Numbered from the stretch's first letter, positions 36,960-60,783 are shown. The stretch: DNA of 64,000 nt from Promethearchaeota archaeon (GCA_048937405.1 JBHLNF010000013.1:19332-83331), one strand, 5' to 3'. A program made the numbers and translations. Notes: generated from the letters alone by a model not told the origin.

Positions 36960-37082
36960 GATTTGCTCCCACCCCATACCCTGGATTTTTGTCTTTTGGT
37001 AGTGTAGTTTTCTACACTCTGATTTCGCCCTCCTCCTTACTATTTTTGGCGCGTATTTGCGTTAGTGGGGCGGGAGTAGATC
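36960..37082 (+). ncRNA. Unrecognised structured RNA/element, copy A (orientation provisional)
   Basis: Closing stem CTCCCACCCCA/TGGGGCGGGAG, invariant CCCTGGATTTTTGTCTTTTGGT (36979-37000), hairpins GTGTAG/CTACAC and CGCG/TGCG; homologous to 60666-60783. Confidence 0.7.
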
Positions 37083-37180
37083 TACCTTTTTAAGTAAAGA
37101 GATCCATTTTCCTCTTTATCCCTTTTTTCCTTTAAATTAAAGTAAGTTACCTTAATTTCATAATAAATAGAAAGTGATAG

Positions 37181-37486
37181 ATAATCGTAATCGTTTTTGG
37201 GAAAATAAAAGATGAACAGAAGGTTAAACAACAAACTCAGAAAGTCACTTGTCCCATGTGTCAGCAGAGTATAGATCTTGGAATAGAATTAAATATTATG
37301 AAGAAAAAAGATACATCTATTTATTTTCCTCATATTCATTTACATGGGGATCCTTTGCATGCCTTAATTTGTTATTTGAATTCAGAATTAATTGTAAGAA
37401 ATATAGGTGTTATCCAGAGTATAGAAATTGCTCGTAATTCAGAGACTTTTAGACAACTCATGAAGAAATGGACAAATCCCTACTAA
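37181..37486 (+). CDS. Small Asgard Zn-binding protein (CxxC ... HxH..H); start lies upstream of the tracked ATG, probably ATA/ATC
   Basis: ATG 37256 lies inside the CPMC motif; frame is open from 37181; HIHLHGDPLH. Confidence 0.65.
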   Translation: MIVIVFGKIKDEQKVKQQTQKVTCPMCQQSIDLGIELNIMKKKDTSIYFPHIHLHGDPLHALICYLNSELIVRNIGVIQSIEIARNSETFRQLMKKWTNPY

Positions 37487-37502
37487 AAGGTGATTTAAAA
37501 GC

Positions 37503-40031
37503 ATGATAACGGATTTTACTTCTAAAATTGAGAAAGAGAAATTAGATGATTATAATATAAAAGAGATTTTCAAATATATTTCAGATAAACGTATTGTACG
37601 AGTGCTTTTTGAAGGAAAAATTTTTCAACTGCGTGAGATTCAAAAAGAAGCCATTGAAAAAGGATTATTTTTCAGAAAATCTTTTTTAGTCTGTGCCCCA
37701 TCTGGGAGTGGTAAAACATTAATTGGAGAAATTTGTGCGATTCATAATGCTTTCCAGGCTTTTGGAAAATCTATTTATTTGGTTCCATATAAGGCCCTTG
37801 CAACAGAAAAATATTATCATTTTAAAAAGAATTATGAACGATTTAATTTGAAAATCGAACTTTCAATAGGAGATTATGATATTGATGATTCTAAGTTACA
37901 GAAAACTGATATTATTGTTACAACATATGAAAAGATGGACTCAATATTAAGGAATTTCTATGATAAGGAATGGATTTTTGAAATTTCCACAATTATTATT
38001 GATGAGATTCATGTAATTGGTGAAAGTGATCGTGGTCCAAGATTAGAATCACTGATAGTTAGGTTGAACGAATTTCTGCATAATCCTCAAATTATTGGGC
38101 TTTCTGCTACTATTGCAAATCCTGAATTTTTCAATTCATGGTTATCTTCACTTGGTAATAAAACAACTTTAATAAAATCTGATGAGCGTCCTGTACCGCT
38201 TCACTATAAGATTGAGATTACTCAAAATAAAGATTCTACCATAAGAAGACTTGTAAAAAACACATTAGAAAAAAATGGACAAGTATTAATTTTCTCAAAT
38301 AAAAGAAAGGGAGCACAGCAATCAGCGGAAAATATTAAACATATCGTAAAAAAAACCTTAGAAGAAAATGAATTAAATATTTGTAAGGCATTAGAAAAGC
38401 GACTCTCTTCAATTAGGGGAAGTCATGGAGATTTAAGAAATGTAGTTAAGTCTGGGGTTGCTTTTCATCATGCTGGGCTGCTTCCTAGAGAAAGAAAAAT
38501 AATAGAAGATAATTATAGAAAAAGAATTATAAAAGTTATATGCTGTACTACAACTTTATCAGCAGGCGTAAATACTCCTGCGAGATTAGTGATTCTCAAG
38601 GACTTTAAAAAATATATTACTTCTGGACATAACATAAGAAATTTTAGCGACTTTCACGAAAATGGAGATGGTTTTTCTTATTTTAAATCTTTTTCTGCTA
38701 ACGAGGTTTTTCAAATTTTAGGTCGAGCAGGAAGACCTGGACTTGATTCAGTTGGTTATGGTATTATTTTGACTAAAAATGTTAATGAAAAAATGTGGGT
38801 TGAGGAACATTTCTTTCAGAATCAACCTTTAAAAAATTCATTAATTCCTCGATATAATAATTTAATATCTGGATTAAATAAAATCAATACCCTTAAAGAA
38901 CAAGTCCTCCTGAGAGTTTATGAGGAAAAAAAAATAACATTAGAGCAGTTGAAAGAATTTTTTGAAAAGACATATTTCTGGTATGGAATTAAAAATTCAA
39001 TGAAGGAACAAAAAATTCCAGTTGAACAATTACTAATGATTAAGGAAATAACCCCGATAAATATACTAAAACTTCATTCTAATGCTAAAAAAGTAAATAA
39101 TTTAATGAATGGGGTGTGTGAATCGAAAATTTCTAAATTTAGTGATGAAAACATCTCCGGATATGTGAAAACTCAATTTGGAGTATTTTTTTGCCAATTT
39201 GATATAACCTCTGGTATCCAATGCTCTTGTGGGTTTGAAAATGGTATCTCTGATAATTTTGCGAATAATGAATTCTCATTTGAGTCTTGCGAACATGTTA
39301 CGGCGTTTTTACTCTATTTATTACAATACCCTGACATTAATTTTCAAAAGTATGTTGATTCTATAGTACCTAAATCTGTTAAGAATCAATATATCTTAAG
39401 TTATTTATTCGAAAAGGGTTTAATCATTAAAAATGAAGATGGATCAATACATTGTTCTCAATTTGGAAAATTAATTATTAGACTATATCTTTATCCTGTA
39501 TCTGGAGTAATTATTAGATATAAATTAGAAAATGTCGAAATAAATAGTATTCAAAACTTAATTAAAGAAGCTTATGATGTTCTAAAGACAGAATTTCGAG
39601 TGAAGGATAACAAGATGCTCCATCCAATTTTGGAATGGGCAGATGAAGAACCTATTGAAGAAATATTGGAAAAATACAATATTATGATAGGGGATCTATT
39701 CTCAATTAGAGATAATCTAGAAAGAATTATTACTTTTATAGGAATTATCGCTAGTAATTTAAGTACCCATGGAATTGACTTACAAGATAAATTAGTACGA
39801 ATTGCTGAGATGGCAGAAACTTTAAAGATTCGATTACATTATGGCATTCGGGAGGAACTGTTTGATTTAGTTCTTAGATTAAATGATGTTGGACGTGTGA
39901 GAGCAAGAATTCTCTATAATGCAGGTTACCACACCGCAACTCAAGTAAGGAAAGAAAATCCTTATGTTCTTAATAAGAAAACAGGATTAGGAATTAATTT
40001 ATGTAAGAAAATTATTAAAAAAGACAGATGA
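37503..40031 (+). CDS. Ski2/Hel308-like SF2 helicase with inserted SWIM Zn finger and C-terminal HhH
   Basis: APSGSGKT, DEIH, LSAT, HHAGL, TTTLSAGVNTPA, QILGRAGRPG; CSC...CEH; VGRVRARILYNAG. Confidence 0.9.
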   Translation: MITDFTSKIEKEKLDDYNIKEIFKYISDKRIVRVLFEGKIFQLREIQKEAIEKGLFFRKSFLVCAPSGSGKTLIGEICAIHNAFQAFGKSIYLVPYKALATEKYYHFKKNYERFNLKIELSIGDYDIDDSKLQKTDIIVTTYEKMDSILRNFYDKEWIFEISTIIIDEIHVIGESDRGPRLESLIVRLNEFLHNPQIIGLSATIANPEFFNSWLSSLGNKTTLIKSDERPVPLHYKIEITQNKDSTIRRLVKNTLEKNGQVLIFSNKRKGAQQSAENIKHIVKKTLEENELNICKALEKRLSSIRGSHGDLRNVVKSGVAFHHAGLLPRERKIIEDNYRKRIIKVICCTTTLSAGVNTPARLVILKDFKKYITSGHNIRNFSDFHENGDGFSYFKSFSANEVFQILGRAGRPGLDSVGYGIILTKNVNEKMWVEEHFFQNQPLKNSLIPRYNNLISGLNKINTLKEQVLLRVYEEKKITLEQLKEFFEKTYFWYGIKNSMKEQKIPVEQLLMIKEITPINILKLHSNAKKVNNLMNGVCESKISKFSDENISGYVKTQFGVFFCQFDITSGIQCSCGFENGISDNFANNEFSFESCEHVTAFLLYLLQYPDINFQKYVDSIVPKSVKNQYILSYLFEKGLIIKNEDGSIHCSQFGKLIIRLYLYPVSGVIIRYKLENVEINSIQNLIKEAYDVLKTEFRVKDNKMLHPILEWADEEPIEEILEKYNIMIGDLFSIRDNLERIITFIGIIASNLSTHGIDLQDKLVRIAEMAETLKIRLHYGIREELFDLVLRLNDVGRVRARILYNAGYHTATQVRKENPYVLNKKTGLGINLCKKIIKKDR

Positions 40032-40309
40032 TAGATCTAAAAACTGAAAATAAAAAGAAACTTGAAACTAAAATGCCAAGTTCTTTAAAATTAAATTCTA
40101 TTGATTTGAAAAAAGTAAATAATAAATTTGAAGATAAAGAAATTGAAAATATTTGTGATGAAAATCTCACTATCCTTCAAAAATTACATGCTATTTTATT
40201 AAATTGTTCAAATCTGTCAAAAAAACAGAAATTAGAGTTTTGTGAAAACGAGCGATATTTCATGAAGTTATATTTAAAGAAATTAAAAGAAAATAATCCT
40301 AATATTTAA
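40028..40309 (+). CDS. Hypothetical protein
   Basis: ATGA overlap with the helicase stop codon. Confidence 0.55.
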   Translation: MIDLKTENKKKLETKMPSSLKLNSIDLKKVNNKFEDKEIENICDENLTILQKLHAILLNCSNLSKKQKLEFCENERYFMKLYLKKLKENNPNI

Positions 40310-40429
40310 CTTTTTAATACTAGATTTTTAAAAAAAATTGAAAAACTTCACTTTTGTACCAATCGATTTTATATTTTAAAAAATAGAATTTCAATATAGA
40401 CAAGTGTATTTTTTCGAAGGTTTTTAATT

Positions 40430-40660
40430 ATGCTTTTAAATTTAATAGAAAAAAAAATTCAATCTACTACTAAAAATGATTTATTTGAAAAGGTATTCAT
40501 AAATCTGAAAAAAATTATAATACCATTTTCACAAATTGGAAACTCGAAAAAACCTTCATATTTATACAATGGATTAGAAGAAATTGCTTTTAAAGAACGA
40601 AATATAACATATAAAAAAATACTTTTGAATGAATTTGTTGATAATTTTATTAAAACATAA
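40430..40660 (+). CDS. Small hypothetical protein, paralogue of 40773..41009
   Basis: INLK..IIPFS..G.S..Y.Y.G.E.I.F.ER..TY..IL.NEF shared with the next ORF. Confidence 0.75.
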   Translation: MLLNLIEKKIQSTTKNDLFEKVFINLKKIIIPFSQIGNSKKPSYLYNGLEEIAFKERNITYKKILLNEFVDNFIKT

Positions 40661-40772
40661 GTCATTTTTATAAAAGTTTTAGAAAAAATCATAAAACTTC
40701 TTAAGACTCATAATTTTTCTTTAAATACTTTTAATTTTATTTCAGATTATAAGGTATAAATGTGAGAAAAGA

Positions 40773-41009
40773 ATGAGTTCTAAAACTTTAGATAAAAAAT
40801 TTGAAGGAATTATTGAAGAAGATATTGTAAAACAACCAATAAATCTAAAACAATTTATCATTCCTTTCTCAGAGTTTGGTAGATCCACGAAATATATCTA
40901 TCTTGGAACTGAAAAGATACCTTTTAGAGAACGATATCCAACTTACCAAATGATTCTAACGAATGAATTTGCTAAAGCAATAAAAGAATTCCAAGAAACT
41001 TTAAAATAA
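40773..41009 (+). CDS. Small hypothetical protein, tandem paralogue
   Basis: Same shared motif as 40430..40660. Confidence 0.78.
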   Translation: MSSKTLDKKFEGIIEEDIVKQPINLKQFIIPFSEFGRSTKYIYLGTEKIPFRERYPTYQMILTNEFAKAIKEFQETLK

Positions 41010-41059: not shown

Positions 41060-42373
41060 CTAACTCTCTAATAAGGGAGGATCCTTAACTTTACGATATT
41101 TGTATAATTCAAAATCGAGTAAGTGATCTTTTTCATTCTCAGGAGTTTTTTCATAATTTATATCAAATGGAGAATCATAAATCTTGAGAAAAAGAAACAT
41201 TGGAGATTTGTCTTTTTCTCGAAGGGCAAAATAATAGGAATCTAAAGTATTATTTATATTAAATATTTCAGTTGTATTTCCAAGAAAAATTTCCTCTTTT
41301 TCAGATCTAATATCTTTTTCTTCGATCTTTGATACTTCTTTATCTAAAAGGCCTAACTTTTTAATAATTTTTTCTAGTAAGTCTGAGGATTTAATTAAGC
41401 TAATAAATCCATCTACTTTAAATCTTTGAAAAATCTTTTTTTTAACCTGGGCTTGGATTGTACTCATTCTGATACCCAAATGATTACATATAGAACTAAT
41501 ACTTACCTTTTCCTTGCAAGTACATAACACAACAATGGAACTTACTAATCCTGCGATGACATCATCAGTTGTATTTTTAATGCCTTGCCATAACCTATAG
41601 AGTATTTTTTTAGAAAGAAAATAAAAAGGCATTCCTAACTCAAATCCCTCTGAAATTTCAAGAATTCTTTGAAGTATATATTTCTGTCTATTACGTTCAC
41701 CATATTCTGGTAAGAATCTTTGGAGTTGTAAGATAAAATCATTGAATTCCTTTTTTGAAATTTTAGAAATCTCAATTAATTCCTGTGGATTAATGGAAAT
41801 ATTATTAAGCTTAAGACAAAAATATATTATAATTGAAACTAATTTCTCTATATTTCTGTATTTTGAACTCGGTCTAATTTTAGCTCTAATCATCTTAAAT
41901 TTGGTTAATACCATTTGTTTTATTGAATTATATCCATTTAAATCTAAATAATTAAAGATTCTCGCTATTTCAATACGAGCTCTCTCAATCACAGCTTTTT
42001 CACTCGGGATTATAGAATTGTATTTGTTTATCCTTTGTAATCGGATAGAGTGAGGAGAGATTATTCGTTCACCCCTTGTGCCTATCAAAGTTCTGCCTAC
42101 ACCCTTTGCATACTGAATTAAATCTTCATTATAAGGTCTATCGTATTGTAGCTTTTGAATTTCTAATACAATTCCACAATCTCGGCATACATACCCCTCA
42201 GAGTTTTCTATAATGTCAGAAGAACCACAAATATCGCATGAAAGATATGAAATACCACGAATTAGTTCACCTTCTTGAAGTATTTTATTTGTTGCCAATG
42301 CTTTGATCACTATTTTTTCTAATTTACCTAAAGAATATAAGGTAGGTGTTTTGATTTTAAACCTTTTCCTCAA
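41060..42373 (-). CDS. Divergent TFB/TFIIB-family transcription initiation factor with N- and C-terminal extensions
   Basis: Zn ribbon CDICGS...YVCRDCGIV; two cyclin-like repeats (IIIYFCLK....I...ELIE; AGLVSSI...SISSICNHLGIRMSTI). Confidence 0.8.
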   Translation of the reverse strand: MRKRFKIKTPTLYSLGKLEKIVIKALATNKILQEGELIRGISYLSCDICGSSDIIENSEGYVCRDCGIVLEIQKLQYDRPYNEDLIQYAKGVGRTLIGTRGERIISPHSIRLQRINKYNSIIPSEKAVIERARIEIARIFNYLDLNGYNSIKQMVLTKFKMIRAKIRPSSKYRNIEKLVSIIIYFCLKLNNISINPQELIEISKISKKEFNDFILQLQRFLPEYGERNRQKYILQRILEISEGFELGMPFYFLSKKILYRLWQGIKNTTDDVIAGLVSSIVVLCTCKEKVSISSICNHLGIRMSTIQAQVKKKIFQRFKVDGFISLIKSSDLLEKIIKKLGLLDKEVSKIEEKDIRSEKEEIFLGNTTEIFNINNTLDSYYFALREKDKSPMFLFLKIYDSPFDINYEKTPENEKDHLLDFELYKYRKVKDPPLLES

Positions 42374-42913: not shown

Positions 42914-43408
42914 ATGGGCGCAGGAAAAGTTTTGGCGTTTTTAGGGGGCGTACTAACTTTACTTGGTACTTATGTTTTTGCTATTATTGGTGCAAACCAT
43001 ATTGTAGGGTCTGGTATTACTTTTGCGATAAAGATTCCTGAACTATTTGAAAATGCTGATCCTAATTCTACGGCATTAGATATTCCAGTAGCACTCTATT
43101 ATGTATATTTAGTCCTCTTCATTATATTTCTTGCATCTGGTATATTACAAATGCTTAGTATACAAAGTAGAGCGGTAGGTTTTATATTCTCACTCTTTCC
43201 CTTAGCAGTTTCACTAATGTTTATAATGTTACTATATACAAATATTCTGGGCACTACATCTGGTTTTTTTGCAGTTATTTTTCTCGATGATCAGTATGGT
43301 GATATTTTTCCATTTCTAATAGAACTTGGAGATGTAGATTTAGGAGCATATTTGTTACTTGCAGGCGGAGTTTTAGGAATATTAAGTGTGTTTATGGAGC
43401 GCGATTAA
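42914..43408 (+). CDS. Four-TM membrane protein
   Basis: Hydrophobic, Gly-rich helices. Confidence 0.75.
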   Translation: MGAGKVLAFLGGVLTLLGTYVFAIIGANHIVGSGITFAIKIPELFENADPNSTALDIPVALYYVYLVLFIIFLASGILQMLSIQSRAVGFIFSLFPLAVSLMFIMLLYTNILGTTSGFFAVIFLDDQYGDIFPFLIELGDVDLGAYLLLAGGVLGILSVFMERD

Positions 43409-43532
43409 TTAACCAAAATTTTTTTTTCTTTTCTTTACTTTATTTTAAAAATTATTCTAAAGTTATAATTTCGTAAATTTCTTTAAAAACTTATAATACC
43501 AAAAGAAAAAATAAATAAAGAGAAATTTTAGA

Positions 43533-45107
43533 TTAAGCATAGTTAGATTTTTGTCTTCTTATTATTATCAAAATTATTACAGTACTAATTCCAAATAATA
43601 ACATTAATCCATATCCAGAAATCTCAGGGGAATTTTCAGTGTGTAAATTTTTAAAAACTTGTACATATGCTTCGCCTATCAATCCTATGCTATTATTTGC
43701 ATAAAAACTAATAGTAACAAGTCCATTTTCTTTTTTATCCCATTCAGATTGCTTAATATGGTAATATAATGTATTTATTGTAATATTTGTTACACCATTA
43801 TCAATTGTGTACCAAATGGTATTGTATGGAATAGATACAGTTATGTCATAAACTGGCGCGTAATTTCCATAAGTTATATTGGGTTTTGGATTATTAATTG
43901 TTATTTGTGGTACTGGAACAAGATCACGGTCAAAAAGATAAATATAATTACTTCCTCCCGCCACAATATATTTTCCATCGGAGGAAATATCTAATTTATT
44001 ACTACGACAGCAACCTACGTTGTCCAATTTATAAACCCAAATTGGGATTGAACTTGCATTATTGAATAAATAAACATAGTCATCCTGGCTTTGTGCAACG
44101 ATATACTCTCCATTATCTGAAATATCAACTGCTACTATATTTCCTCCAGTTGAATAATTCCAAATAGGTGTTGAATTTAATCGGTTAAAAAAGTACACAT
44201 TACGATCCCGACATCCTACAACAATATATTTGCTATCTGGAGTCATTTTAATAGAATCAACATAGTTAGGAGTATTATAAACCCATATTGGAATTGAACT
44301 ATTTTTATGGAACAAATATACTGCTCCACCCCCAGTTGCAACATAATTACCATCAGTAGATATTGATAAAGCATCAGTAGTATATCCTGGAAAATAAAAA
44401 GTCCACTCTGGTACACTACTAGATTTATTAAAAAAATATAATCTATAAGCATTATCTGTGGTAACTATATAACTTGCATTTGAGGAGGCATCCACTCGAA
44501 GAGTTGATCCGGTTGTTGAAGCCTCCCAAAAAGGAGAAGATCCCGTTTTATTAAAAAGAAATAATTTTTCAGACGCACCCGTAACAGCAATATAAAATCC
44601 ATCATCGGAGATCCAAACATCAGAAAATCCATCCCCAGTAGAATAATTCCATAACGGAATAGGATTTAAATAATCAAAAAAGATAACTCTAAAGTCGGTG
44701 AAGTAAACACTTGCCACAATATAAGATCCATTAGCAGAAATCCCAATATCATATAAAGATTTTAAAACTGAGTAATTCCATAATGGATTTTTTATTTCAG
44801 GGAGAGAATTATTGAATAAAATGATTGTTGCCGACAAGTTTGTATTTCCTAGTGTCTTCCATGAAGCTGTTATATAACCTCCGTCAGAAGAAATCGTGAC
44901 TGCCTCAACTTGTTGATCTTCACCTAAGGAGTAGTTCCATAATGGAGTAGTGGGAAGAATTGAATTAGAATTATATAAATTTATAATAAAGTTATCCTTG
45001 AGTGATTTTGAACTCCCAGTTAAAAAAATAGGATTTCCTAATAGGATAATTGCTGACAATAATAATAGTTGTAAATTGAATTGCTTTAAATTCTTCAATA
45101 GCAACAA
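43533..45107 (-). CDS. Secreted WD40/PQQ-like beta-propeller with Ig-like domain and Loki-CTERM anchor
   Basis: Repeats P.W.Y......V.IS.DG.YI.A; C-terminal ISGY + TM + basic tail. Confidence 0.88.
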   Translation of the reverse strand: MLLLKNLKQFNLQLLLLSAIILLGNPIFLTGSSKSLKDNFIINLYNSNSILPTTPLWNYSLGEDQQVEAVTISSDGGYITASWKTLGNTNLSATIILFNNSLPEIKNPLWNYSVLKSLYDIGISANGSYIVASVYFTDFRVIFFDYLNPIPLWNYSTGDGFSDVWISDDGFYIAVTGASEKLFLFNKTGSSPFWEASTTGSTLRVDASSNASYIVTTDNAYRLYFFNKSSSVPEWTFYFPGYTTDALSISTDGNYVATGGGAVYLFHKNSSIPIWVYNTPNYVDSIKMTPDSKYIVVGCRDRNVYFFNRLNSTPIWNYSTGGNIVAVDISDNGEYIVAQSQDDYVYLFNNASSIPIWVYKLDNVGCCRSNKLDISSDGKYIVAGGSNYIYLFDRDLVPVPQITINNPKPNITYGNYAPVYDITVSIPYNTIWYTIDNGVTNITINTLYYHIKQSEWDKKENGLVTISFYANNSIGLIGEAYVQVFKNLHTENSPEISGYGLMLLFGISTVIILIIIRRQKSNYA

Positions 45108-45229
45108 ATTGGAGTATTATTTTTTCTGTATTTTAATAATTAGAACTAAAAAATATATAAATTTTACTTAGTGAAAAAAAGATTATTTCTTCAATTTTTC
45201 TTTATATATTCTCATGATAGTAATATTCT

Positions 45230-45619: not shown

Positions 45620-45670
45620 TTTTTTAATAGTTTAATTTATTTTGTTTAAATCTATGACACTATATTAGAA

Positions 45671-52578: not shown

Positions 52579-52689
52579 GTCTATTCAAATAGTTATCTCT
52601 TTTGAAATTAAGTAAAACAAGATTATTTAAAGAAAAAAATCCAATTTAGATTTTTTATTTATAAGCATAAGAATATAAAATAAAACAAT

Positions 52690-53349: not shown

Positions 53350-53580
53350 ATGCCCTCAGAATTTTATTGTCCTCGTTGTAAATCTGAAGAATATATTGAG
53401 TATGAAGATCATATAGAATGTTTGCAGTGTGGAATGGAATTTTCAAAAGAGTCTTTAGAAATGGATATTGATATTGAGGATATTGCTGCTGAAGAAGAAC
53501 TTCAAGGCTTTTTTGATGGATTTGATGAGGAAGAACGAAAGAAACTTGAAAAAATACTTAAAGAAGACAATTTCTCTTAA
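53350..53580 (+). CDS. TFIIB-type Zn-ribbon micro-protein with acidic tail
   Basis: MPSEFYCPRCKSEEYIEYEDHIECLQCG; the upstream extension in the track (53191) looks non-coding. Confidence 0.7.
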   Translation: MPSEFYCPRCKSEEYIEYEDHIECLQCGMEFSKESLEMDIDIEDIAAEEELQGFFDGFDEEERKKLEKILKEDNFS

Positions 53581-53794
53581 TTTTTGAGATTTTTATTACT
53601 TTTTTTGTTTAAATACTTCTAATTGATCCATTATTAATTCACAATGAAATAATAAACGTTGATTATGGAAGCTAAGAACTTAAATATTTTCAAAATGATT
53701 TTTTGGTTATATCATATGATTAGGGGATAGTAATCTAAACTAAAATTCCAAATCTTTTTTCTTTATATTTATTTATATCAGAGATAGTTCAATA

Positions 53795-54889
53795 ATGGGA
53801 GTAAAATTACAAAGCATTGTTATTCGAAAAGATATTAGTTATCAAGACTTATCTGGCAAAGTAATAGCAATAGATGCACCAAATATCATAATGGGCTTGT
53901 TTAATTTTGCCCGAAGGAATACCAATGGTTCAGATTCTTTTTTAATTTTAGATAGAACGCAAAGACCGATATCTCACTTATATGGGCTATTATATCGAAT
54001 AAATTTTTATTATTCAAAAAAAATTTTTCCCATCTTTTGTTTCGATGGAAAAGAATCTAAAATGAAAAGATATATTTCAAAAGATCAATTGAAAGATTTC
54101 ATTTTCACAAAAAAATGGTATGAGCAAGCATTAAAAGAAGGTGATAAGAAGTTAGCAAGACAGATTGCATTAAGTACAGAATACATGTGGCAGAATATAA
54201 TACAAGAATCCAAACATCTACTTGGAGCTTTGGGAGTTCCATATATTGAGTCACCTGCTTCAGCAGAATCTCAATGTGCTTATTTAACTAAAAAAGGAAT
54301 TGTTGATCTTTCTAACTCACAAGATTTTGATTCAATTTTATTTGGTTGTCCTTTTCTTATACAAAATCTTTCTAAATCTTTAAGAAGGAAAGTTCAAGGA
54401 CAATGGCAATATCAAAAAATACATCCATTACAAATAGATCTCCATAAAAATCTTGAAAATTTAAAAGTTACACTCTTTCAATTAATTGATGTTGGAATAT
54501 TAATAGGAACCGATTATTTCCCAGGAATAAAAGGTATTGGACCAAAAAAAGCACTTATACTCATGAGAAAATATAAAAATATTGAGACTTTAATTTTAAA
54601 AGAATATAATAATTATAACTTCCATGAATTGACCCCAAGTATTTTAAAAAGAGTAAGAAGTATCTTTATAATTCCTGATGTTCTTGATTCTTTAGACAAT
54701 TTACATTGGAACCTCCCAAACAAAGCCCGTATTATCTCGTTATTATGTAAAGAACATCATCTAGATAGAAATAGAGTAAACTCAAGTTTAATTAAATTTG
54801 AAAGAAATTATAAAATGTGTAGAGATTATTTTATTCTAAAGAAGAATTTTTTGAGATCAAAACAAGCTATCCTCGATAATTTATTATAA
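53795..54889 (+). CDS. Flap endonuclease 1 (FEN1/XPG) paralogue
   Basis: MGV.L, IAIDA.N, FDG, SAESQCAY, SQDFD..LFG, GTDYFPGIKGIGPKKA, degenerate PIP box KQAILDNLL. Confidence 0.88.
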   Translation: MGVKLQSIVIRKDISYQDLSGKVIAIDAPNIIMGLFNFARRNTNGSDSFLILDRTQRPISHLYGLLYRINFYYSKKIFPIFCFDGKESKMKRYISKDQLKDFIFTKKWYEQALKEGDKKLARQIALSTEYMWQNIIQESKHLLGALGVPYIESPASAESQCAYLTKKGIVDLSNSQDFDSILFGCPFLIQNLSKSLRRKVQGQWQYQKIHPLQIDLHKNLENLKVTLFQLIDVGILIGTDYFPGIKGIGPKKALILMRKYKNIETLILKEYNNYNFHELTPSILKRVRSIFIIPDVLDSLDNLHWNLPNKARIISLLCKEHHLDRNRVNSSLIKFERNYKMCRDYFILKKNFLRSKQAILDNLL

Positions 54890-55146: not shown

Positions 55147-55761
55147 ATGGCTCAAATACAAAAAAAACAATTTATCGATGTTAGAAATGGATCTGATTAC
55201 TATAACAAGTTCTACAAATCTCAAAATAATCTTAAATCTATTATTTTGAATTATATATTTCGAAATATTGCGTTTGTAACAAATCAAGACAAGATTAGAG
55301 CATTGACCACTTCTGATTATGAAAATATTACTGAACATACAAATATCCCAATTAAAATTATTCATAAGTTTACAAGCTGTTTTTTAATCGATTTAATCAA
55401 GTTTAAAAGATTTGTAAAAAAAAATCCACAAATCTTGAATTCAAAGAGACAGACACGAATAGTACGTATATATCTGCATAAATTTTATCGATTAGCTCCC
55501 GTATTTAATTTTAAAAGAGCAAGAGAAAATGCCAGAATTTTGCGAATTAAACTTGATAAATTATTTTTTTGGCCTCAAATTATGACACAAATAGCTATTA
55601 TTATATTTATTACTGACTTGCTTGATAAGAATTTTTCCCAGAAACTAATCCAAACTAATTTAAGAGCACTCTGTAACTGTTCTGCTTATGCTTTTCATAG
55701 AACTCGTAATAAAATTGGCTTTACATCAAATTACATTAAGGATTTACTTATTTTAAAATAA
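55147..55761 (+). CDS. Basic protein with a TFB C-terminal cyclin/HTH-like repeat
   Basis: WPQIMTQIAIIIFIT...LIQTNLRALCNCSAYAFHRTRNKI resembles the TFB repeat-2 pattern P..iAa..iy....tq..ia....s..ti..r. Confidence 0.5.
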   Translation: MAQIQKKQFIDVRNGSDYYNKFYKSQNNLKSIILNYIFRNIAFVTNQDKIRALTTSDYENITEHTNIPIKIIHKFTSCFLIDLIKFKRFVKKNPQILNSKRQTRIVRIYLHKFYRLAPVFNFKRARENARILRIKLDKLFFWPQIMTQIAIIIFITDLLDKNFSQKLIQTNLRALCNCSAYAFHRTRNKIGFTSNYIKDLLILK

Positions 55762-55762
55762 A

Positions 55763-56680
55763 ATGACAGAAAGAGCAGAAAAAGTATATCAAGCATTAAT
55801 GGAATTAGGATTGAGTGAAGAGGATTTAAATTCCAAAATTAATGAGAAAATAATGGAATATAAAGGATATATGACAAAAGAAGGCGCTATTTATTTGATT
55901 GGAAAAGAGAATGGAATTGACTTATACTCTTCTGATCAAAACATCCAAAATGAAATAAATGAACTTATTGATTATAATGATTTTGCAATTAATATCTCTG
56001 ATGTGATTGAAGGAATGCAAAATATAGTTATAGAAGGGAGAATTACTGATATTTTTGGATTAAAAAATTTTACCAAAAAGGATAATACTTCTGGAATTGT
56101 TGGCTCATTTCAAATTTGTGACATATCAAACTGTATTAAAATTGTATTATGGAATGAACAAGTCAAAAGTATGGAAAATGAATGTTTTAAAAAAGGAGAG
56201 ATTATTCAAGTTATTGGAGGGTATTCTAAAAAGGGAATTGATGATGATCTTGAAATTCACTTAAGTAGAAAAGGAAAATTAGTATTAGCACCCCAGGGAG
56301 TAAGATTACCCGACAAAATGACTCAAAGAAATTCCAAAATAATTAATAAAGAAAATGCTATAAGTTCTCAGGCTCTTACAATTGATCAACTATATAAAAA
56401 AGAAGGTTTTATAAAATCTGTAAAGGGAATTATACAAATTGATGAGTTAAAGGAATTCACGTTAAAGAATGGAGAGAAATCTTTTCTTCTTAAATTAATT
56501 CTAAATGATGAAACAGCATCCATTCGAATAAATATTTGGGGTATAAAAGCAATTGAGTGTATTAAATTAGTTAATGAAGGTGATAATGTCAAAATATCCA
56601 ACGTATTATTAAAACAAAATTCCTTTTCTAATGAAAAAGAACTTAATTTTACAAAAAGCTCAAGATTAGAAGTGATTTAA
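55763..56680 (+). CDS. Replication protein A / SSB with two OB folds
   Basis: YKGYMTKEGAIYLI N-terminal domain; F.KKD..G.V.SF.I.D....IKIVLW; second OB L.DETASIRINIWG. Confidence 0.88.
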   Translation: MTERAEKVYQALMELGLSEEDLNSKINEKIMEYKGYMTKEGAIYLIGKENGIDLYSSDQNIQNEINELIDYNDFAINISDVIEGMQNIVIEGRITDIFGLKNFTKKDNTSGIVGSFQICDISNCIKIVLWNEQVKSMENECFKKGEIIQVIGGYSKKGIDDDLEIHLSRKGKLVLAPQGVRLPDKMTQRNSKIINKENAISSQALTIDQLYKKEGFIKSVKGIIQIDELKEFTLKNGEKSFLLKLILNDETASIRINIWGIKAIECIKLVNEGDNVKISNVLLKQNSFSNEKELNFTKSSRLEVI

Positions 56681-56754
56681 TACAATCCACAAATTTTTTC
56701 TTTAAATATTCCTCATATATTCTTCTTTTAAAAATAATTTACTAAAGAGATAAA

Positions 56755-57303
56755 ATGATAAATCATATACCAAAAATTTTATATCAAAACAAGATTACCG
56801 AAATTCTCGATGATGTAAGATATCATTATGGAAAATTAACTCGAAAGGGATATATTTATGGTTTAATTGCAATAGATCAGGACGCTAAAATTATTGCTAT
56901 TGACTCTCGTTTCGATAGAAGGTTGAATTATTGGGATTTAAGCTCAATCGGCGCAGCATTATACGGAGTTGCTCGTCAAGGTCAAGATTTTTTTGAAACG
57001 GAATCTTTGGAAAGAGCAACAATTATCTATAGTGATATGAGATTATTTGTAAAATCGATTGGAAATGTTGAACTCCAGAAAAAAGGAAAAAGGGATATAT
57101 TGATAGTTCTTTTAACAGACAATGACGTTAATCTAGGAGTAATGATTCTCCAAATGAGTAAGTTTGCTCAAAAAATAAGAGAAGAAATTGAAAAAGATGA
57201 ACATATGAAACATGTTTTAAAAATGCCAGAGAAAGATATAAAGGAGCATATCAAAGAGTTAAAGAAAGAAATATTCAAGGATAAAATAGGGATAATCTCT
57301 TAA
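56755..57303 (+). CDS. Roadblock/LC7 (MglB-like) protein
   Basis: GLIAIDQDAKIIA, LSSIGAALYGVA, VNLGVM; adjacent to a GTPase gene. Confidence 0.75.
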   Translation: MINHIPKILYQNKITEILDDVRYHYGKLTRKGYIYGLIAIDQDAKIIAIDSRFDRRLNYWDLSSIGAALYGVARQGQDFFETESLERATIIYSDMRLFVKSIGNVELQKKGKRDILIVLLTDNDVNLGVMILQMSKFAQKIREEIEKDEHMKHVLKMPEKDIKEHIKELKKEIFKDKIGIIS

Positions 57304-57326
57304 TTCTTTTTCTATTAGGTGATAAT

Positions 57327-57980
57327 ATGGAATTAGAACAACGAGATTTAAATAAGGCAAGAGTAGAAGTAAGTGAAGATTTCGATTTTAATGATTCAGA
57401 AAATATGCTTCAATTTAAAATTGTGTATTGGGGTCCAGGTGAGAGTGGAAAAACCACAAATTTTTTTCGATTACGAGAGAAATTTGACTTACTCAAACTT
57501 ACTCATGGCTATTCAATAGAAACTACTGAAGGGAGAACACTCTGGGAAGATTCTTTATACCTGTTGTTCAAGTTTACAATGTACGACATCAAATTTAATA
57601 TCATTTGTCATGTTGTAACATGTACTGGTCAAGAACGTTTTCTTTCTACTCGAGAATATGTGTTAGACGGAGCAGATGGTGTTCTTTTCATAGGGGATTC
57701 AGATCCCGAGAAATTAGAACAGAATAAAAGAAGTTTCCGTGAATTAATAAGTTTTGCAAAACCTAAGGGGATTCCTTACTTGATTCAATTGAATAAAAGA
57801 GATTTGAAAAATGCAATTCAAATTAAAGATTTTAAAATTCATTTAGGACTTCCTTTACAAGAAAAATATCCTGATGGTACATATATCGTTTACCCCGCAG
57901 AAGCATTACAAGGGAAGAATGTAATCCAATGTTTTCAAGATTTAATACTTCAAGTAATTTTTAATTACTTCAAGGAATAA
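57327..57980 (+). CDS. MglA-like small GTPase
   Basis: KIVYWGPGESGKTTN, GRTL, TCTGQERF...R..VLDGADG, NKRD, EA. Confidence 0.9.
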   Translation: MELEQRDLNKARVEVSEDFDFNDSENMLQFKIVYWGPGESGKTTNFFRLREKFDLLKLTHGYSIETTEGRTLWEDSLYLLFKFTMYDIKFNIICHVVTCTGQERFLSTREYVLDGADGVLFIGDSDPEKLEQNKRSFRELISFAKPKGIPYLIQLNKRDLKNAIQIKDFKIHLGLPLQEKYPDGTYIVYPAEALQGKNVIQCFQDLILQVIFNYFKE

Positions 57981-58008
57981 TAAATCAATATTTTATTAAG
58001 GTGGCTCA

Positions 58009-59616
58009 ATGGATACAAGTTCAGATTTCATTAGACCGGAATTTCTTAATATCTTATTCTTTCAACAAAAAAATTTAGTTATATTTCCGTATATTGATCT
58101 AAAACATCTTCATACATTAGAGATTTATACTGTAGGATATAATATAATCGACCTTGAATCTACAGCACTTAATAATTTAAAAGAAATTATTGAGTTTGAG
58201 TCTACTAATTCATATTCTCAAAATCCTACACTCTATTTTATTTATAATGTTGATCGTAAAAACGTGAAGGAATTAATGGAGTTAAATGGAATCAGGTGTG
58301 TCATTAATTCAAATGAAAATATCAGTGATTTAATCAATGGAACTAAGTTTATTTTTTTTAATAAGAAAAATAATCAATTTCTTAATTATGAAAATGATAA
58401 TTCAGAGTTAGAATTTGAAAATCATCTAATATCAGCTTCCCAAGATGAGGAGATTTTATTGGAAAAAATTCATGAAATTAAAATGGCAGCAAGTAGGATA
58501 TTTCGTGAATTGAATCAAAAAAACAACTTAGATAGACTTTCTGATATTCTACAAGAGTTTGATCAGAAATATTGGGATCCTATTTTACAATTTACACGTC
58601 TTTATTACGATATAAATATCCCAAATATCTCCAAGATTAAATCCAAAAAACAAAAGATCTTAAAAGACTTCTCAAAAGAATATGAATTACTTATTTCTAA
58701 TAATAAACCGATTGGAAAAGAGTTTATTCAGTTGCTTCATGAATATCGAAGTAAAAAAGTAAATCCACATCATTTAAAATTAGAGGAATTATACAATCCA
58801 TTAAAATTATATAACTATTTAAGAAATCATCATTGGAAAAACGGAATTCCAAAAGATTTTATCTCTGAATGGATTCAGATGAAAATATCTGGTTATAAAT
58901 TCAACGAGTCAGACCAAGAAGATTTTAAAATAATTCTAAAGATGTTAGAATTATATCCAGATTCTTCTTTATTAGACCATAAAAATCCATTATCTTCTCT
59001 TGAATCAAAAAAACACAGTAAAATTATTCCTTCACTTTATAATGAGTGGGATAAATTTAAATTGTGGTTGGTTCGTTGCATCAATGACATTGAAGCGATA
59101 TTAGAAAAAAATAATACATTTCCAGAGGATCAATCATATCTGATGAAAAATTTTCTGGAAATTATTAATCTTATAACAATTAAACCTCCTTTTAAAAGTA
59201 AAGAAAGAGAATTTAATAATAATCTTCTTTTAGTAGATATTTCTAATCTATTAAACATGGATAAAGATGAAAATGATAAGATAAAGGTTAATAATATTCA
59301 AAAAGTGAGGGATGTCATAATATCTATAGGTTATACACCAAGAATGATTGCGGATGCTTCTATGAGACATCACATCGATGATGACGATAAATATAAAGAA
59401 TTTATTGAGAAAAAAATTATACTTCAAGCACCTGCTGGAACAGAAGCAGATGAATATATATTAGAGATTGCTAAAGTAGAGAAATCTAGATTTCTTACTA
59501 ATGATATGTTTGAAAAATATTGGAAAGAATTTGGAAAAGATTGGATTTTTCAAAATCGCTTAACTTGTTTGTTTTTTAATGGGAAATTTATCATTCGCAA
59601 CAATATAAAGAGATGA
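58009..59616 (+). CDS. Protein with C-terminal Zc3h12a/Regnase-like NYN (PIN-fold) ribonuclease domain
   Basis: LLVDISN, ADAS.RH.ID, APAGTEADEYIL, FLTNDMF. Confidence 0.8.
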   Translation: MDTSSDFIRPEFLNILFFQQKNLVIFPYIDLKHLHTLEIYTVGYNIIDLESTALNNLKEIIEFESTNSYSQNPTLYFIYNVDRKNVKELMELNGIRCVINSNENISDLINGTKFIFFNKKNNQFLNYENDNSELEFENHLISASQDEEILLEKIHEIKMAASRIFRELNQKNNLDRLSDILQEFDQKYWDPILQFTRLYYDINIPNISKIKSKKQKILKDFSKEYELLISNNKPIGKEFIQLLHEYRSKKVNPHHLKLEELYNPLKLYNYLRNHHWKNGIPKDFISEWIQMKISGYKFNESDQEDFKIILKMLELYPDSSLLDHKNPLSSLESKKHSKIIPSLYNEWDKFKLWLVRCINDIEAILEKNNTFPEDQSYLMKNFLEIINLITIKPPFKSKEREFNNNLLLVDISNLLNMDKDENDKIKVNNIQKVRDVIISIGYTPRMIADASMRHHIDDDDKYKEFIEKKIILQAPAGTEADEYILEIAKVEKSRFLTNDMFEKYWKEFGKDWIFQNRLTCLFFNGKFIIRNNIKR

Positions 59617-59740
59617 ATAATACATTGGAGAATAATTAATGTTCTATCTCTTGATTGTTATCATATTTAAGTTTGAAATAATTTAAAAGATTAATATATT
59701 TATTACCTCTTATATAAAAGTCATTTTTTTTTTACATACT

Positions 59741-60586
59741 ATGATAATTTGGATATTAGATGCCGAATCTGGAGTTAAATTGCTATACAGATCCTTTTTG
59801 AAAACAGATGCAGATGAGGATATAGTGTCTGGATTTTTAACAGCGTTTCATCATTTCTCTATGGTAGAATTTAAAGAATCATTAGATTCTATAGAAATGG
59901 GTGGTCTAAGGTGGGTTTATATCCTAGAAGAAAAATTAAAATTACTTTTTGTTGCTGCTGATACAAAACATACGAAGACAGAAATCCTTCTAGGGCGATT
60001 AAATGTAATTAAAAATGCATTTGTAAAAGAATTTACACCTGTTTGGGAAAAAAAAGGTTATAATTGGGACGGAGATATTAACATTTTTTTACCATTTCTT
60101 AATGAGATTGAAGACTACTATGATCAATGGGGAGAAGTAGAAAATTTAGCTCAGATGGCTGATTTTTTTGATATTTTAGGTATCTTTCAAAAAATTTTAA
60201 TTATGCTACGAAATGTTATAGAAAAAAAAATGTATTCCAAATCAAAGATTTTTATACTTAATAAAATAGAAGAGAAATTCAATACATTAAAAAATCAAAA
60301 AGATTCTAAAAATAAAACAGAGTTAAAGAATATTACTTTCAGTAAAGATACTTGGTTTAACATTAAAGATATCGATTTGATCAAAAGTGATACTAATTTA
60401 GTCTTTAAAAATTTAAAAACTATTCTTTCGGATATTATAAATATTTTAAAAGAAGTAAAGGGAAATAATGCGTGTTTCAAATATTTTAGTGAGGAACAAA
60501 TATATGCCTATCTTTTCAACAATATGAGATTATTAAAAGATTTAAAATTAGATACATTTTTATTAGAACTATTTCTTTTACTTTAA
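59741..60586 (+). CDS. Asgard longin-like domain protein, paralogue of 13582..14427
   Basis: IWILDAESGVKL..DIVSGFLTA...F..SIEMGGLRWVY..FFDILGIFQ. Confidence 0.7.
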   Translation: MIIWILDAESGVKLLYRSFLKTDADEDIVSGFLTAFHHFSMVEFKESLDSIEMGGLRWVYILEEKLKLLFVAADTKHTKTEILLGRLNVIKNAFVKEFTPVWEKKGYNWDGDINIFLPFLNEIEDYYDQWGEVENLAQMADFFDILGIFQKILIMLRNVIEKKMYSKSKIFILNKIEEKFNTLKNQKDSKNKTELKNITFSKDTWFNIKDIDLIKSDTNLVFKNLKTILSDIINILKEVKGNNACFKYFSEEQIYAYLFNNMRLLKDLKLDTFLLELFLLL

Positions 60587-60665
60587 AAAAGTAGTATTAT
60601 CTTTAAGCCATTAGAACTCTTATACTATTTTAATAATTATACTATTGTATGATTAAGTTAAGGAC

Positions 60666-60783
60666 GGCTCCTGCCAATAAGCCTCAGAAAGAGGCATAAA
60701 ATTTTAAAAGGCAGAGTAGGTAAATCTTATGTGTAATTTCTTACACAACCAAAAGACAAAAATCCAGGGGATTGACAGGAGCC
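60666..60783 (-). ncRNA. Unrecognised structured RNA/element, copy B (orientation provisional)
   Basis: 13-bp closing stem GGCTCCTGTCAAT/ATTGGCAGGAGCC, same 22-mer (60748-60769), hairpins GTGTAA-GAAA-TTACAC and GCCTC/GAGGC; lies between convergent genes. Confidence 0.7.

What the first reader, a model, noticed from the sequence alone, without database searches (positions are those of the whole stretch)
36960..60783. 24-kb island of second-copy DNA-processing, transcription and GTPase-switch genes bracketed by the inverted elements
Seen: between the two inverted structured elements lie a Hel308-like helicase, a divergent TFB, a RadA paralogue, several Zn-ribbon proteins, a pilin-like 2-TM protein, FEN1-like, RPA, roadblock + GTPase, a Regnase-like nuclease and a longin-like protein. 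Many look like divergent paralogues and share one promoter motif. No integrase, transposase, capsid or polymerase is present. Known: RadA, RPA, Hel308 and FEN1 form a homologous-recombination toolkit, and in Sulfolobales a truncated TFB3 activates DNA-exchange genes after damage. Inference: an inducible recombination, DNA-exchange or developmental programme with its own transcription factor, ncRNAs and GTPase switch. A domesticated mobile element whose ends are the inverted 22-mers is the alternative.
Basis: partly seen in the sequence, partly recalled or inferred. Interest (0 to 1): 0.78.

Follow-up and report, generated by a model that had tools for sequence, protein, structure and literature searches.

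The report
Co-regulated spare recombination genes in Lokiarchaeia
This stretch of a Lokiarchaeon chromosome is half of a vertically inherited gene cluster holding spare, divergent DNA-recombination enzymes, membrane proteins, a GTPase switch and its own divergent transcription factor, nearly all behind one rare promoter, which points to a switchable second recombination or DNA-exchange programme in the closest archaeal relatives of eukaryotes.

Summary
The genes are there as described. RadA, FEN1, RPA and TFB are extra, divergent copies, with canonical ones elsewhere in the genome. The Hel308-like helicase is the only one of its family found in this genome.

The shared promoter is real. TTTTTCTTTAWAT occurs 60 times in 4.47 Mb, six of them in these 24 kb. 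It sits at fixed distances before the orthologous genes in ten or more related genomes.

The "divergent TFB" folds as a full-length TFB: Zn ribbon, two cyclin repeats and an extra C-terminal domain.

Gene order is kept across the genus and partly across the order. In most relatives the cluster is larger (about 35-45 kb). It also holds a Hef-like helicase, a RadB-like ATPase and a membrane operon with an HhH protein. In this genome those genes lie on another contig, next to a second copy of the TFB.

It is not a mobile element. The two inverted "ends" are paralogous small RNA genes, with one to five copies per genome, found also where the cluster is missing. The left one lies inside the ancestral cluster.

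Best reading: a co-regulated, dispensable second recombination/fork-repair set, possibly tied to DNA handling at the membrane. No expression data exist.

The scan has noted this same cluster on other Asgard DNA.

The parts
36960..37082 (+). Small structured RNA gene, left copy: long closing stem, invariant 20-mer CCTGGATTTTTGTCTTTTGG, two hairpins, T-run at the end
   Evidence: five copies in the genome; closing stem and hairpins covary between copies and species. It lies between the HhH membrane operon and o76b-hel308 in relatives.
37124..37138 (+). Variant of the cluster promoter (TTTTTCCTTTAAAT), 132 nt before o76b
   Evidence: The strict motif stands at -131 to -142 before o76b orthologues in eight relatives.
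37256..37486 (+). o76b, small conserved protein just before the helicase. The true start is probably upstream of this ATG, because a CPMC motif straddles it.
   Evidence: 35-76% identical orthologues next to or near the helicase, also in other families.
37503..40031 (+). Hel308/HELQ-family (Ski2-like) helicase, 842 aa; the only family member found in this genome
   Evidence: 412 bits, below the equivalog cut-offs; best PDB match P. furiosus Hjm, 5e-88.
40028..41009 (+). o93, o76 and o78: three small conserved ORFs (o76 and o78 are paralogues). The cluster promoter before o78 starts at 40714.
41060..42298 (-). Divergent full-length TFB paralogue: Zn ribbon, two cyclin repeats and an extra C-terminal beta domain of about 90 aa
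   Evidence: Foldseek top 41 hits are all TFIIB/TFB/Brf (1d3u_B TM 0.79, rmsd 2.9). The family was found in 53 of 68 sampled genomes of the window's family; outside it there was only one partial C-terminal match.
42914..45107 (.). o164 (4 TM-like segments) and a WD40 protein with N- and C-terminal hydrophobic anchors; variable, not conserved at this place in relatives
45195..45619 (+). Cluster promoter (45195) and o129a, a Cys-rich small protein
   Evidence: motif 35 nt before the orthologues in four relatives.
45671..46798 (-). Class I/II aminotransferase; an insertion shared only with the closest relative
46836..48146 (+). Cluster promoter (46836) and the RadA paralogue with HhH domains at both ends (46908-48146)
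   Evidence: 328 bits, against 455 and 440 for the two canonical RadAs; motif 68-74 nt before the orthologues.
48343..51006 (.). o167 and a NosD-type beta-helix protein with terminal hydrophobic anchors; variable
51180..52637 (-). o105 (Zn ribbon) and o363 operon behind the cluster promoter (52625-52637). o363 is a membrane-anchored tandem beta-jelly-roll surface protein.
52690..53580 (+). o72 (2 TM-like segments) and o129b (2 TM-like segments plus a Cys-rich ribbon)
53756..54889 (+). Cluster promoter (53756) and the FEN1/XPG-like paralogue (53795-54889)
   Evidence: (276 bits, cut-off 352; the canonical copy scores 427).
55147..56680 (+). o204 (possible stand-alone TFB cyclin-like protein; a lead only) and the short RPA-like OB-fold protein, coupled
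   Evidence: canonical 574-aa RPA on another contig.
56695..59616 (+). Cluster promoter (56695) and the operon of roadblock-like o182, Arf-like small GTPase and NYN RNase
   Evidence: o182 and the GTPase stay beside the RadA paralogue and the helicase in two other families.
59741..60586 (+). Longin-like protein (weak match); a paralogue lies at 13582-14427 of the window
60666..60783 (-). Small structured RNA gene, right copy, downstream of and co-oriented with the CDF transporter gene
   Evidence: it keeps its place beside CDF in a relative whose cluster is broken into three pieces.

Best explanation
The 24 kb are the larger half of a vertically inherited gene cluster. The full cluster is specific to one Lokiarchaeia family, and a core of it is older.

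Shown:
- It encodes extra, divergent copies of RadA (with a second HhH domain), FEN1 and RPA. It also encodes the genome's only Hel308/HELQ-type helicase, several Zn-ribbon proteins, membrane and surface-anchored proteins, a roadblock-like/small-GTPase/NYN-RNase operon, a longin-like protein and a full-length but very divergent TFB.
- In most relatives the same cluster also holds a Hef/FANCM-type helicase, a RadB-like ATPase and a membrane operon that starts with an HhH protein carrying two TM-like segments. In this genome those genes lie on another contig beside a second copy of the TFB.
- At least seven transcription units in the window start behind one rare promoter, TTTTTTCTTTAWATA. In it a T-run plus C takes the place directly upstream of the TATA box where the BRE normally lies.
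- The canonical RadA, FEN1 and RPA genes lack this promoter.

Inferred:
- The divergent TFB, or another factor that reads the T6C element, switches the whole set on together. This would give the cell a conditional second machinery for recombination and stalled-fork repair (Hel308 with RPA and RadA, Hef, FEN1).
- Because membrane and surface proteins are co-regulated with it, the machinery may act on DNA at the cell envelope, for example in uptake or exchange.
- The GTPase/roadblock/longin/NYN genes would be its signalling or RNA-control arm.

The two inverted elements are small RNA genes, not ends of an element.
For: Paralogy:
- RadA scores 328 bits, against 455 and 440 for the two canonical copies.
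- FEN1 scores 276 bits, against 427 for the canonical copy.
- A canonical 574-aa RPA, about 12 canonical TFBs and two further Hef-like genes lie elsewhere in the genome.

Synteny:
- The same order of about 30 genes is seen in eight genomes of the genus and on a metagenome contig of another genus.
- The RadA paralogue, helicase, FEN-like, o76b, o105, roadblock-like and GTPase genes, and a weak TFB-like tblastn match (27%), lie within 25 kb in another family.

Promoter:
- There are 60 sites per genome, six of them in the island where 0.32 are expected. This is the densest place in the genome.
- The site stands at fixed distances before the orthologues.
- Only about 26 of 3681 TTTAWATA boxes carry xTTTTTC upstream.
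- The cluster holds 14-22% of all sites in three relatives.
- The motif is absent before the canonical copies.
- It is also present before the Hef, RadB-like and HhH operons on contig 14.

TFB: the fold match is to TFB/TFIIB.

Membrane parts: hydropathy and the o363 model.

Literature:
- Hel308/HELQ works with RPA and RadA/RAD51 (PMC13623763).
- A TFB paralogue runs a regulon in Sulfolobus (bioRxiv 10.64898/2026.09.06.749720).
Against: - There is no expression or binding data, so the link between the TFB paralogue and the motif rests on position and co-location only.
- The TFB gene itself has a different promoter.
- Co-occurrence of the TFB paralogue and the RadA paralogue within the family is only moderate: 39 genomes have both, 15 the TFB only, 7 the RadA only, 8 neither. 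These genomes are kin, so they are not independent.
- The motif is still somewhat more frequent than its reversed control in genomes where RadA, Hel308-like and FEN-like paralogues were mostly not found (one keeps the FEN-like gene).
- In several genomes these cluster genes were not found or the cluster is broken up, so it is dispensable.
- About half of the genes have no assignable function.
- No ATPase of the VirB4/HerA type or pilus gene could be shown by sequence.
Confidence: 0.6

Rival explanations
1. A cell-cycle or replication-coupled transcription wave. Here the divergent TFB would drive periodic expression of replication-restart and recombination factors in every cycle, like TFB2 in Sulfolobus, rather than in response to damage or DNA exchange.
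For: A TFB paralogue with its own regulon is known for the cell cycle. A topoisomerase IA gene also carries the motif. FEN1, RPA, Hel308 and Hef all act at replication forks.
Against: In about a fifth to two fifths of the genus's genomes the helicase, RadA or FEN-like paralogue was not found or the cluster is fragmented, which is odd for a core cell-cycle function. No division or replication-initiation genes lie in the cluster. The co-regulated surface and membrane proteins are left unexplained.
Confidence: 0.15
2. A neutral gene neighbourhood. Here the genes sit together by descent only, and the motif is simply one strong generic promoter type read by the housekeeping machinery.
For: The motif occurs about 50 more times elsewhere, before unrelated genes such as AlaRS and metabolic enzymes. 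It persists above its control in genomes where most of these cluster genes were not found.
Against: Enrichment is 19-fold and is replicated in each species. Positions are fixed across species. The motif is absent from the canonical paralogues. Linkage of the same gene families survives rearrangement across three families of the order.
Confidence: 0.12
3. A domesticated or integrated mobile element whose ends are the inverted repeats.
For: There is a 31-nt inverted repeat at both sides of the window's version. Distribution among genomes is patchy. Many of the genes are orphans.
Against: - No integrase, transposase, replication-initiator or virion gene was found, and PHROGs gave no match.
- Composition is the same as the rest of the genome.
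- The flanks are syntenic, and cluster genes diverge at a rate like that of the flanking genes.
- The repeats are RNA genes, with 1-5 copies per genome, also found in genomes without the cluster.
- The left one is internal to the ancestral cluster.
- The repeats are inverted, not direct, so they are not att sites.
Confidence: 0.04
4. An anti-virus or anti-plasmid defence island built from helicases and nucleases.
For: The helicase cross-matches Hachiman HamB models (144 bits). A NYN nuclease and a GTPase are present.
Against: The HamB match covers the shared Ski2-like core only and is far weaker than the Hel308 match (412 bits). There is no HamA or any other PADLOC component. RadA, RPA and FEN1 paralogues are not defence parts. 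The cluster is syntenic and vertically inherited rather than shuffled.
Confidence: 0.04

Closest known systems
   Same: A TFB paralogue is tied to a set of DNA-exchange and repair genes that includes membrane proteins. The housekeeping TFB stays separate.
   Different: TFB3 is truncated and acts as a co-activator. This factor is full length, with both cyclin repeats and an added C-terminal domain. The target genes here are spare RadA, FEN1, RPA, Hel308 and Hef copies, not pili or CedAB. No VirB4/HerA-type ATPase could be shown.
TFB2 cell-cycle regulon of Sulfolobus acidocaldarius (bioRxiv 10.64898/2026.09.06.749720)
   Same: A full-length TFB paralogue with its own promoter set. Promoter architecture around BRE/TATA differs from that of the housekeeping set.
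   Different: There the BRE is similar and the spacing differs. Here a T6C run stands where the BRE would be. The targets are recombination paralogues, not division genes. Nothing here has been tested experimentally.
Second RadA clade of Asgard archaea (Matsuo et al. 2025, PMC12722695)
   Same: More than one full-length RadA per Asgard genome. Lokiarchaeia were noted as having paralogues.
   Different: That work does not describe gene context. This paralogue, at this level of similarity, was found only in one order. It carries a second HhH domain in one family, and it sits in a co-regulated cluster. Its place in their tree was not tested here.
Hel308/HELQ with RPA and RadA/RAD51 paralogues in recombination control (PMC13623763)
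   Same: The same set of partners (Hel308-type helicase, RPA, RadA-type recombinase, RAD51-paralogue-like small ATPase) is encoded side by side.
   Different: Here the partners are lineage-specific divergent copies with a common promoter. Physical interaction was not tested.
Bacterial competence regulons: alternative sigma factor ComX with its promoter box, SsbB, DprA, RecA, ComEA (from my own knowledge)
   Same: Works alike in outline. A dedicated initiation factor and a special promoter switch on a spare ssDNA-binding protein, recombination proteins and a membrane HhH protein.
   Different: The proteins and the domain of life are unrelated. There is no homology to ComEC, ComEA or pili, and DNA uptake is not shown.

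Membership tests
TFB/TFIIB | N-terminal Zn ribbon | tested here: met
   PF08271 scores 21.6 bits, below the cut-off of 29, but four Cys are invariant in 27 homologues and the model has a ribbon-like hairpin.
TFB/TFIIB | Two cyclin-fold repeats that bind TBP and DNA | tested here: met
   Residues 100-310 of the model have pLDDT of about 88. Foldseek matches 1d3u_B (TM 0.79, rmsd 2.9 over 205 columns) and 1ais_B (TM 0.73), and all 41 top hits are TFIIB/Brf. The sequence profile against PDB is only weak (E 0.2), and PF00382 is not matched.
TFB/TFIIB | B-reader and B-linker; canonical BRE-reading helix | tested here: inconclusive
   The linker region 46-96 is modelled at low confidence. Earlier notes say both are rewritten, but I did not align them to a canonical TFB.
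TFB/TFIIB | Recruits RNA polymerase to TBP-bound promoters | not testable with these tools
   Needs in vitro transcription or ChIP.
RadA/Rad51 recombinase | RecA-type ATPase core with Walker A and B, N-terminal HhH domain, FxxA polymerisation motif | tested here: met
   PF08423 at 1.7e-71. Walker A is GPFKSGKT, Walker B is LIVIDS, and an FTPA motif is present.
RadA/Rad51 recombinase | Scores as the RadA equivalog | tested here: inconclusive
   NF003301 gives 328 bits (cut-off 259, met). TIGR02236 gives 293 bits (cut-off 361, not met). The two other copies score 440-455 bits.
FEN1 (archaeal flap endonuclease) | Scores as the fen_arch equivalog | tested here: not met
   TIGR03674 gives 276 bits, cut-off 352; the copy on contig 25 scores 427.
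FEN1 (archaeal flap endonuclease) | XPG_N and XPG_I domains with catalytic carboxylates, and a C-terminal PCNA-binding box | tested here: inconclusive
   Both domains are found. By eye, six of seven acidic positions are kept. The C-terminus reads QAILDNLL, with no aromatic pair.
Hel308/Hjm | Scores as an equivalog; domain 4 and the HhH domain 5 | tested here: not met
   Best score is 412 bits against a cut-off of 887; the Hel308-specific model NF040935 gives 339 bits against a cut-off of 1200. Domain 4 (26 bits) and HhH_5 (17.6 bits) are below cut-off. The nearest solved chain is P. furiosus Hjm. It belongs to the wider Hel308/ASCC3/Brr2 group but is not a canonical Hel308.
Integrated mobile element | Integrase, transposase or replication-initiator gene; direct repeats at the ends; the same unit at different sites | tested here: not met
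   No such gene was found. The repeats are inverted RNA genes. The flanks are syntenic among relatives.
Ced/Ted-type archaeal DNA import | VirB4/HerA-type ATPase with membrane partners | tested here: inconclusive
   Membrane partners are present. The 1281-aa membrane protein of the HhH operon has no Walker A motif, no Pfam match in 97 homologues and no PDB match by profile.

The most novel reading that the evidence does not exclude
Lokiarchaeia of this family would carry a dedicated cell-contact, DNA-exchange and recombination apparatus. It would comprise surface adhesins, a membrane-tethered HhH DNA receptor, a spare RPA/RadA/RadB-like/Hel308/Hef/FEN1 set to process and integrate incoming DNA, a small-GTPase polarity or signalling switch, and a private TFB that turns it all on from a private promoter. 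[quoted passage not shown]
Probability: 0.2. Interest if true: 0.9.

Novelty: new variant of a known kind. Interest (0 to 1): 0.7.

Why it matters
[quoted passage not shown] When specialised recombinases and regulated genome exchange arose is an open question (PMC12722695).

This lineage keeps a complete second set of recombination and fork-repair proteins: homologues of RAD51, a RAD51-paralogue-like ATPase, HELQ, FANCM, FEN1 and RPA. The set sits under a private promoter, next to a private TFIIB homologue, membrane proteins and a GTPase switch.

That gives concrete experiments: one promoter element, one factor and one set of target genes. It is also a clear case of how duplicated basal transcription factors could partition a genome into programmes before eukaryotes.

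Tried and rejected
- Rfam (gathering threshold on the window; E up to 1 on three other RNA copies) and ARAGORN found nothing.
- RNAalifold on the MAFFT alignment of the RNA copies missed the closing stem because the alignment was out of register. Single-sequence folds show the stem. I built no covariance model, since the RNA is the subject of a separate finding.
- Sequencing runs: no RNA holder is listed.
- I laid contigs of four DNA runs on 41501-61500. All joints had sides of 20-37 letters and mostly fell at the repeated promoter or the RNA gene. They are not usable as evidence of inversion or excision. Depth rises over the right RNA gene, as expected for a multi-copy, cross-species conserved sequence.
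- PADLOC gave only a partial HamB cross-match of the helicase core. PHROGs gave nothing.
- The repeated ATTTTTGTC before the TFB gene, which resembles the RNA's invariant core, is not conserved in relatives, so I dropped it.
- The lead that the 1281-aa membrane protein is VirB4/HerA-like could not be confirmed by motif, Pfam or PDB profile.
- The o363 fold search gave only generic tandem jelly-roll matches with TM of about 0.2.
- No complex prediction was run: neighbouring genes alone were not reason enough.

Full report
**Source.** The window is contig 21 (19332-83331) of a 4.47-Mb assembly in 29 contigs, about 29% G+C. Homologues carry names such as Lokiarchaeia or Promethearchaeota archaeon. 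The island has the same composition as the rest of the window and genome.

**What is in the region.**
- a Ski2-like helicase nearest to Hel308
- a protein with only a weak TFIIB Zn-ribbon match
- a Rad51/RadA protein with an extra C-terminal HhH domain
- an XPG/FEN1-like nuclease
- an OB-fold protein matching replication factor A models
- an Arf-like GTPase
- a protein ending in a Zc3h12a-type NYN domain
- a weak longin match

The ORF before the GTPase is roadblock-like by an atlas lead only. No integrase, transposase, polymerase or virion gene was found, and ten unknown proteins have no PHROGs match. The region also holds an aminotransferase, a WD40 protein and a NosD-type beta-helix protein, which the finding did not mention.

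**Second copies or sole copies?** tblastn over the whole genome, followed by NCBIfam scoring, gives a clear answer for most genes.
- RadA: two RadA genes on contigs 18 and 27 score 455 and 440 bits on the RadA equivalog. The window's copy scores 328 and a fourth copy 251.
- FEN1: the copy on contig 25 scores 427 bits on fen_arch, above the cut-off. The window's copy scores 276, below it.
- RPA: a 574-aa RPA with the C-terminal RPA domains lies on contig 29.
- TFB: about twelve TFBs with both cyclin repeats lie elsewhere.
- Hel308: this is the exception. The window's helicase is the best and only Hel308-family match in the genome. In five of 24 genomes of the genus no such helicase was found with this query.

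The RadA paralogue keeps Walker A and B and an FxxA motif. The FEN-like protein keeps most of its acidic residues but has a non-aromatic C-terminal box.

**Synteny.** The RadA paralogue has orthologues of 78-90% identity in about 15 of 24 genomes of the genus, and of 49-65% in three other families of the order. At this level it was not found in 226 other genomes of the phylum.

I fetched 40 kb around it in twelve genomes and around the helicase in five more. The same gene order appears in the genus, with the CDF and PhzF genes on the right. In another family, nine of the core genes lie within 25 kb, among them the roadblock-like/GTPase pair and a TFB-like gene.

The WD40, aminotransferase, NosD, o164 and o167 genes are not conserved at these places.

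**The cluster is larger than the finding.** A metagenome contig of another genus and eight genomes of the genus show one continuous cluster. In order, it holds:
- a membrane operon starting with an HhH protein
- the small RNA gene
- o76b, the helicase and three small ORFs
- a DUF1922 Zn ribbon, a Hef-type helicase, a 200-aa protein and a surface-anchored alpha-alpha-toroid protein
- the divergent TFB
- a 4-TM protein, a 113-aa protein and a RadB-like ATPase
- o129a and the RadA paralogue
- o105 and o363
- o72, o129b and the FEN-like gene
- o204 and the RPA-like gene
- the roadblock-like gene, GTPase and NYN gene
- the longin-like gene
- the second RNA gene, then CDF

In this genome the Hef block, the RadB-like block and the HhH membrane operon lie on contig 14, next to a second TFB copy that is 62% identical. 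The Hef-like helicase scores 559 bits on the Hef model over the helicase part only, and it too has two paralogues elsewhere.

In one complete genome the cluster is broken into three distant pieces. In some genomes the RadA, Hel308-like and FEN-like paralogues were mostly or wholly not found.

**The promoter.** Upstream regions show one recurring element, TTTTTTCTTTAWATA.
- Frequency: the 13-mer TTTTTCTTTAWAT occurs 60 times on both strands of the genome. Six of these are in the island, where 0.32 are expected, and this is the densest place in the genome.
- Which units: it precedes o78, o129a, the RadA paralogue, o105-o363, the FEN-like gene and the roadblock-like operon. A one-base variant precedes o76b and the helicase.
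- Conservation: in ten relatives it stands at the same distance before the orthologues, for example 68-74 nt before radA, mostly 61-63 before o105 (37 in one genome) and 64-69 before o182.
- Rarity of the upstream part: of 3681 TTTAWATA boxes in the genome, only about 26 have xTTTTTC directly upstream, so this is not the general promoter form.
- Share of sites: in three relatives the cluster holds 8 of 58, 9 of 49 and 11 of 49 of all sites.
- Contrast with canonical genes: the canonical RadA, FEN1 and RPA genes lack it.
- Contig 14: the motif precedes the Hef, RadB-like and HhH operons.
- Third dense place: on contig 7 it lies among a canonical TFB, a weak TFB-like gene and paralogues of o129a, o363 and o129b.
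- Limits: genomes where RadA, Hel308-like and FEN-like paralogues were mostly not found still have the motif somewhat above its reversed control. Some sites precede unrelated genes.

**The transcription factor.** The family has at least 472 homologues with Asgard-type source names. Among 301 sampled genomes of the phylum it was found in 53 of 68 of the window's family. Outside that family there was only one partial C-terminal match.

An AlphaFold model from 27 homologues has a confident helical core. Its best Foldseek matches are all TFIIB, TFB or Brf. The best core match is the P. woesei TFB core bound to TBP and BRE-TATA DNA, at TM 0.79 and 2.9 A. It is therefore a full-length TFB with an added C-terminal beta domain, unlike the truncated TFB3.

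Its own promoter is different (GAGGAAAAGG before TTTAAAA) and is preceded by conserved boxes, one of them an imperfect palindrome. That fits control by a further regulator. The long TTG-started ORF of 437 aa runs over this conserved non-coding DNA, so the real start is further downstream.

**Membrane and surface parts.** Hydropathy shows N- and C-terminal hydrophobic segments in o363, the WD40 protein, the NosD protein and the toroid protein. It shows two to four TM-like segments in o72, o129b, o164 and three contig-14 proteins, and a TM hairpin in the 633-aa protein whose N-terminus is a RadA-type HhH domain.

The model of o363 is a helix, two beta-sandwich domains and a C-terminal helix. Its structural matches are only generic jelly-roll ones.

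Earlier notes of the scan on other genomes read a member of the membrane operon as VirB4/HerA-like. In this genome the 1281-aa candidate has no Walker A motif, no Pfam match in 97 homologues and no PDB match by profile. I could not fold it, so that point stays open.

**The inverted elements.** They are two copies of a structured RNA of about 120 nt with an invariant 20-mer. The closing stem and hairpins covary between copies and species.

The genome has five copies. Five genomes in which the RadA paralogue was not found have one to four. The right copy stays beside CDF even where the cluster is broken up. The left copy lies between the HhH operon and the helicase operon, inside the ancestral cluster, in this genus and in another.

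They are not the ends of an element. Whether they take part in the programme is unknown.

**Reading.** The evidence supports a vertically inherited, dispensable, co-regulated cluster (I put this part at about 0.85). The link from the divergent TFB to the T6C-TATA promoter is an inference from co-location and from the position of the T-run where TFB reads DNA (about 0.45).

The function is most simply a conditional second recombination and fork-repair set, since Hel308/HELQ is known to work with RPA and RadA/RAD51 (PMC13623763). The co-regulated envelope proteins leave room for DNA uptake or exchange.

A search of the held literature found RadA paralogues of Asgard archaea (PMC12722695) and TFB-paralogue regulons in Sulfolobus. 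It found no description of this cluster.

The scan's own notes describe the same cluster on several other Asgard genomes. That is not independent evidence.

Noticed in passing
window 36960-37082 (+) and 60666-60783 (-); L003:1475-1613; L004 and L005:1408-1546: The small RNA family keeps a perfectly invariant 20-mer across genera, and the 20-mer contains AUUUUUG, which looks like an Sm-site. Two further copies flank a SIR2-like gene on contig 11. In another genus a copy precedes an Arf-like GTPase gene (L070, near 13101). There is no Rfam match.
   Followed up: partly
window 42355-42483 (minus strand, upstream of the TFB paralogue): Non-coding boxes are conserved across genera before the TFB-paralogue gene: ACAAAARTGTCA, an imperfect palindrome GAGAAGAAG-N2-3-CTTCTTTTC (degenerate in this genome), and GAGGAAAAGG before TTTAAAA. 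They look like an operator plus a canonical purine-rich BRE/TATA. The 437-aa TTG ORF overlaps them.
   Followed up: partly
L066 (contig 7, 334000-349000): A further module holds the fourth RadA-like gene, a Cdc6/Orc1-like AAA+ gene and a third RPA-like gene. Beside it lie a TnpB (IS605 OrfB) gene and E1-like (ThiF) and E2 (UQ_con) genes.
   Followed up: partly
L065 (contig 7, 66000-79000): This is the third dense place of the promoter motif (four sites in 6.5 kb). It holds a canonical TFB, a weak TFB-like gene, a TPR protein, a DUF4428/Myb-like protein, a winged-helix regulator, and paralogues of o129a, o363 and o129b.
   Followed up: partly
L012 (contig 18) and L013 (contig 27): The genome has two canonical-scoring RadA genes. 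The one on contig 18 carries a 110-aa N-terminal extension with a CxxC motif and an acidic run.
   Followed up: no
window 37250-37258: A CPMC motif straddles the first ATG of o76b, so the gene probably starts at a near-cognate codon upstream.
   Followed up: no
window 13582-14427 (minus strand): A paralogue of the longin-like protein (42% identical) lies 45 kb upstream in the same window.
   Followed up: no
L057 (G003 contig 22): In one relative the CDF gene lies to the left of the left-flank genes, in the opposite orientation. This fits a large inversion with one breakpoint at the right RNA gene/CDF boundary.
   Followed up: no
L067 (contig 26, 14109-16238): A topoisomerase IA gene is preceded by the cluster promoter motif 103 nt upstream.
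   Followed up: no
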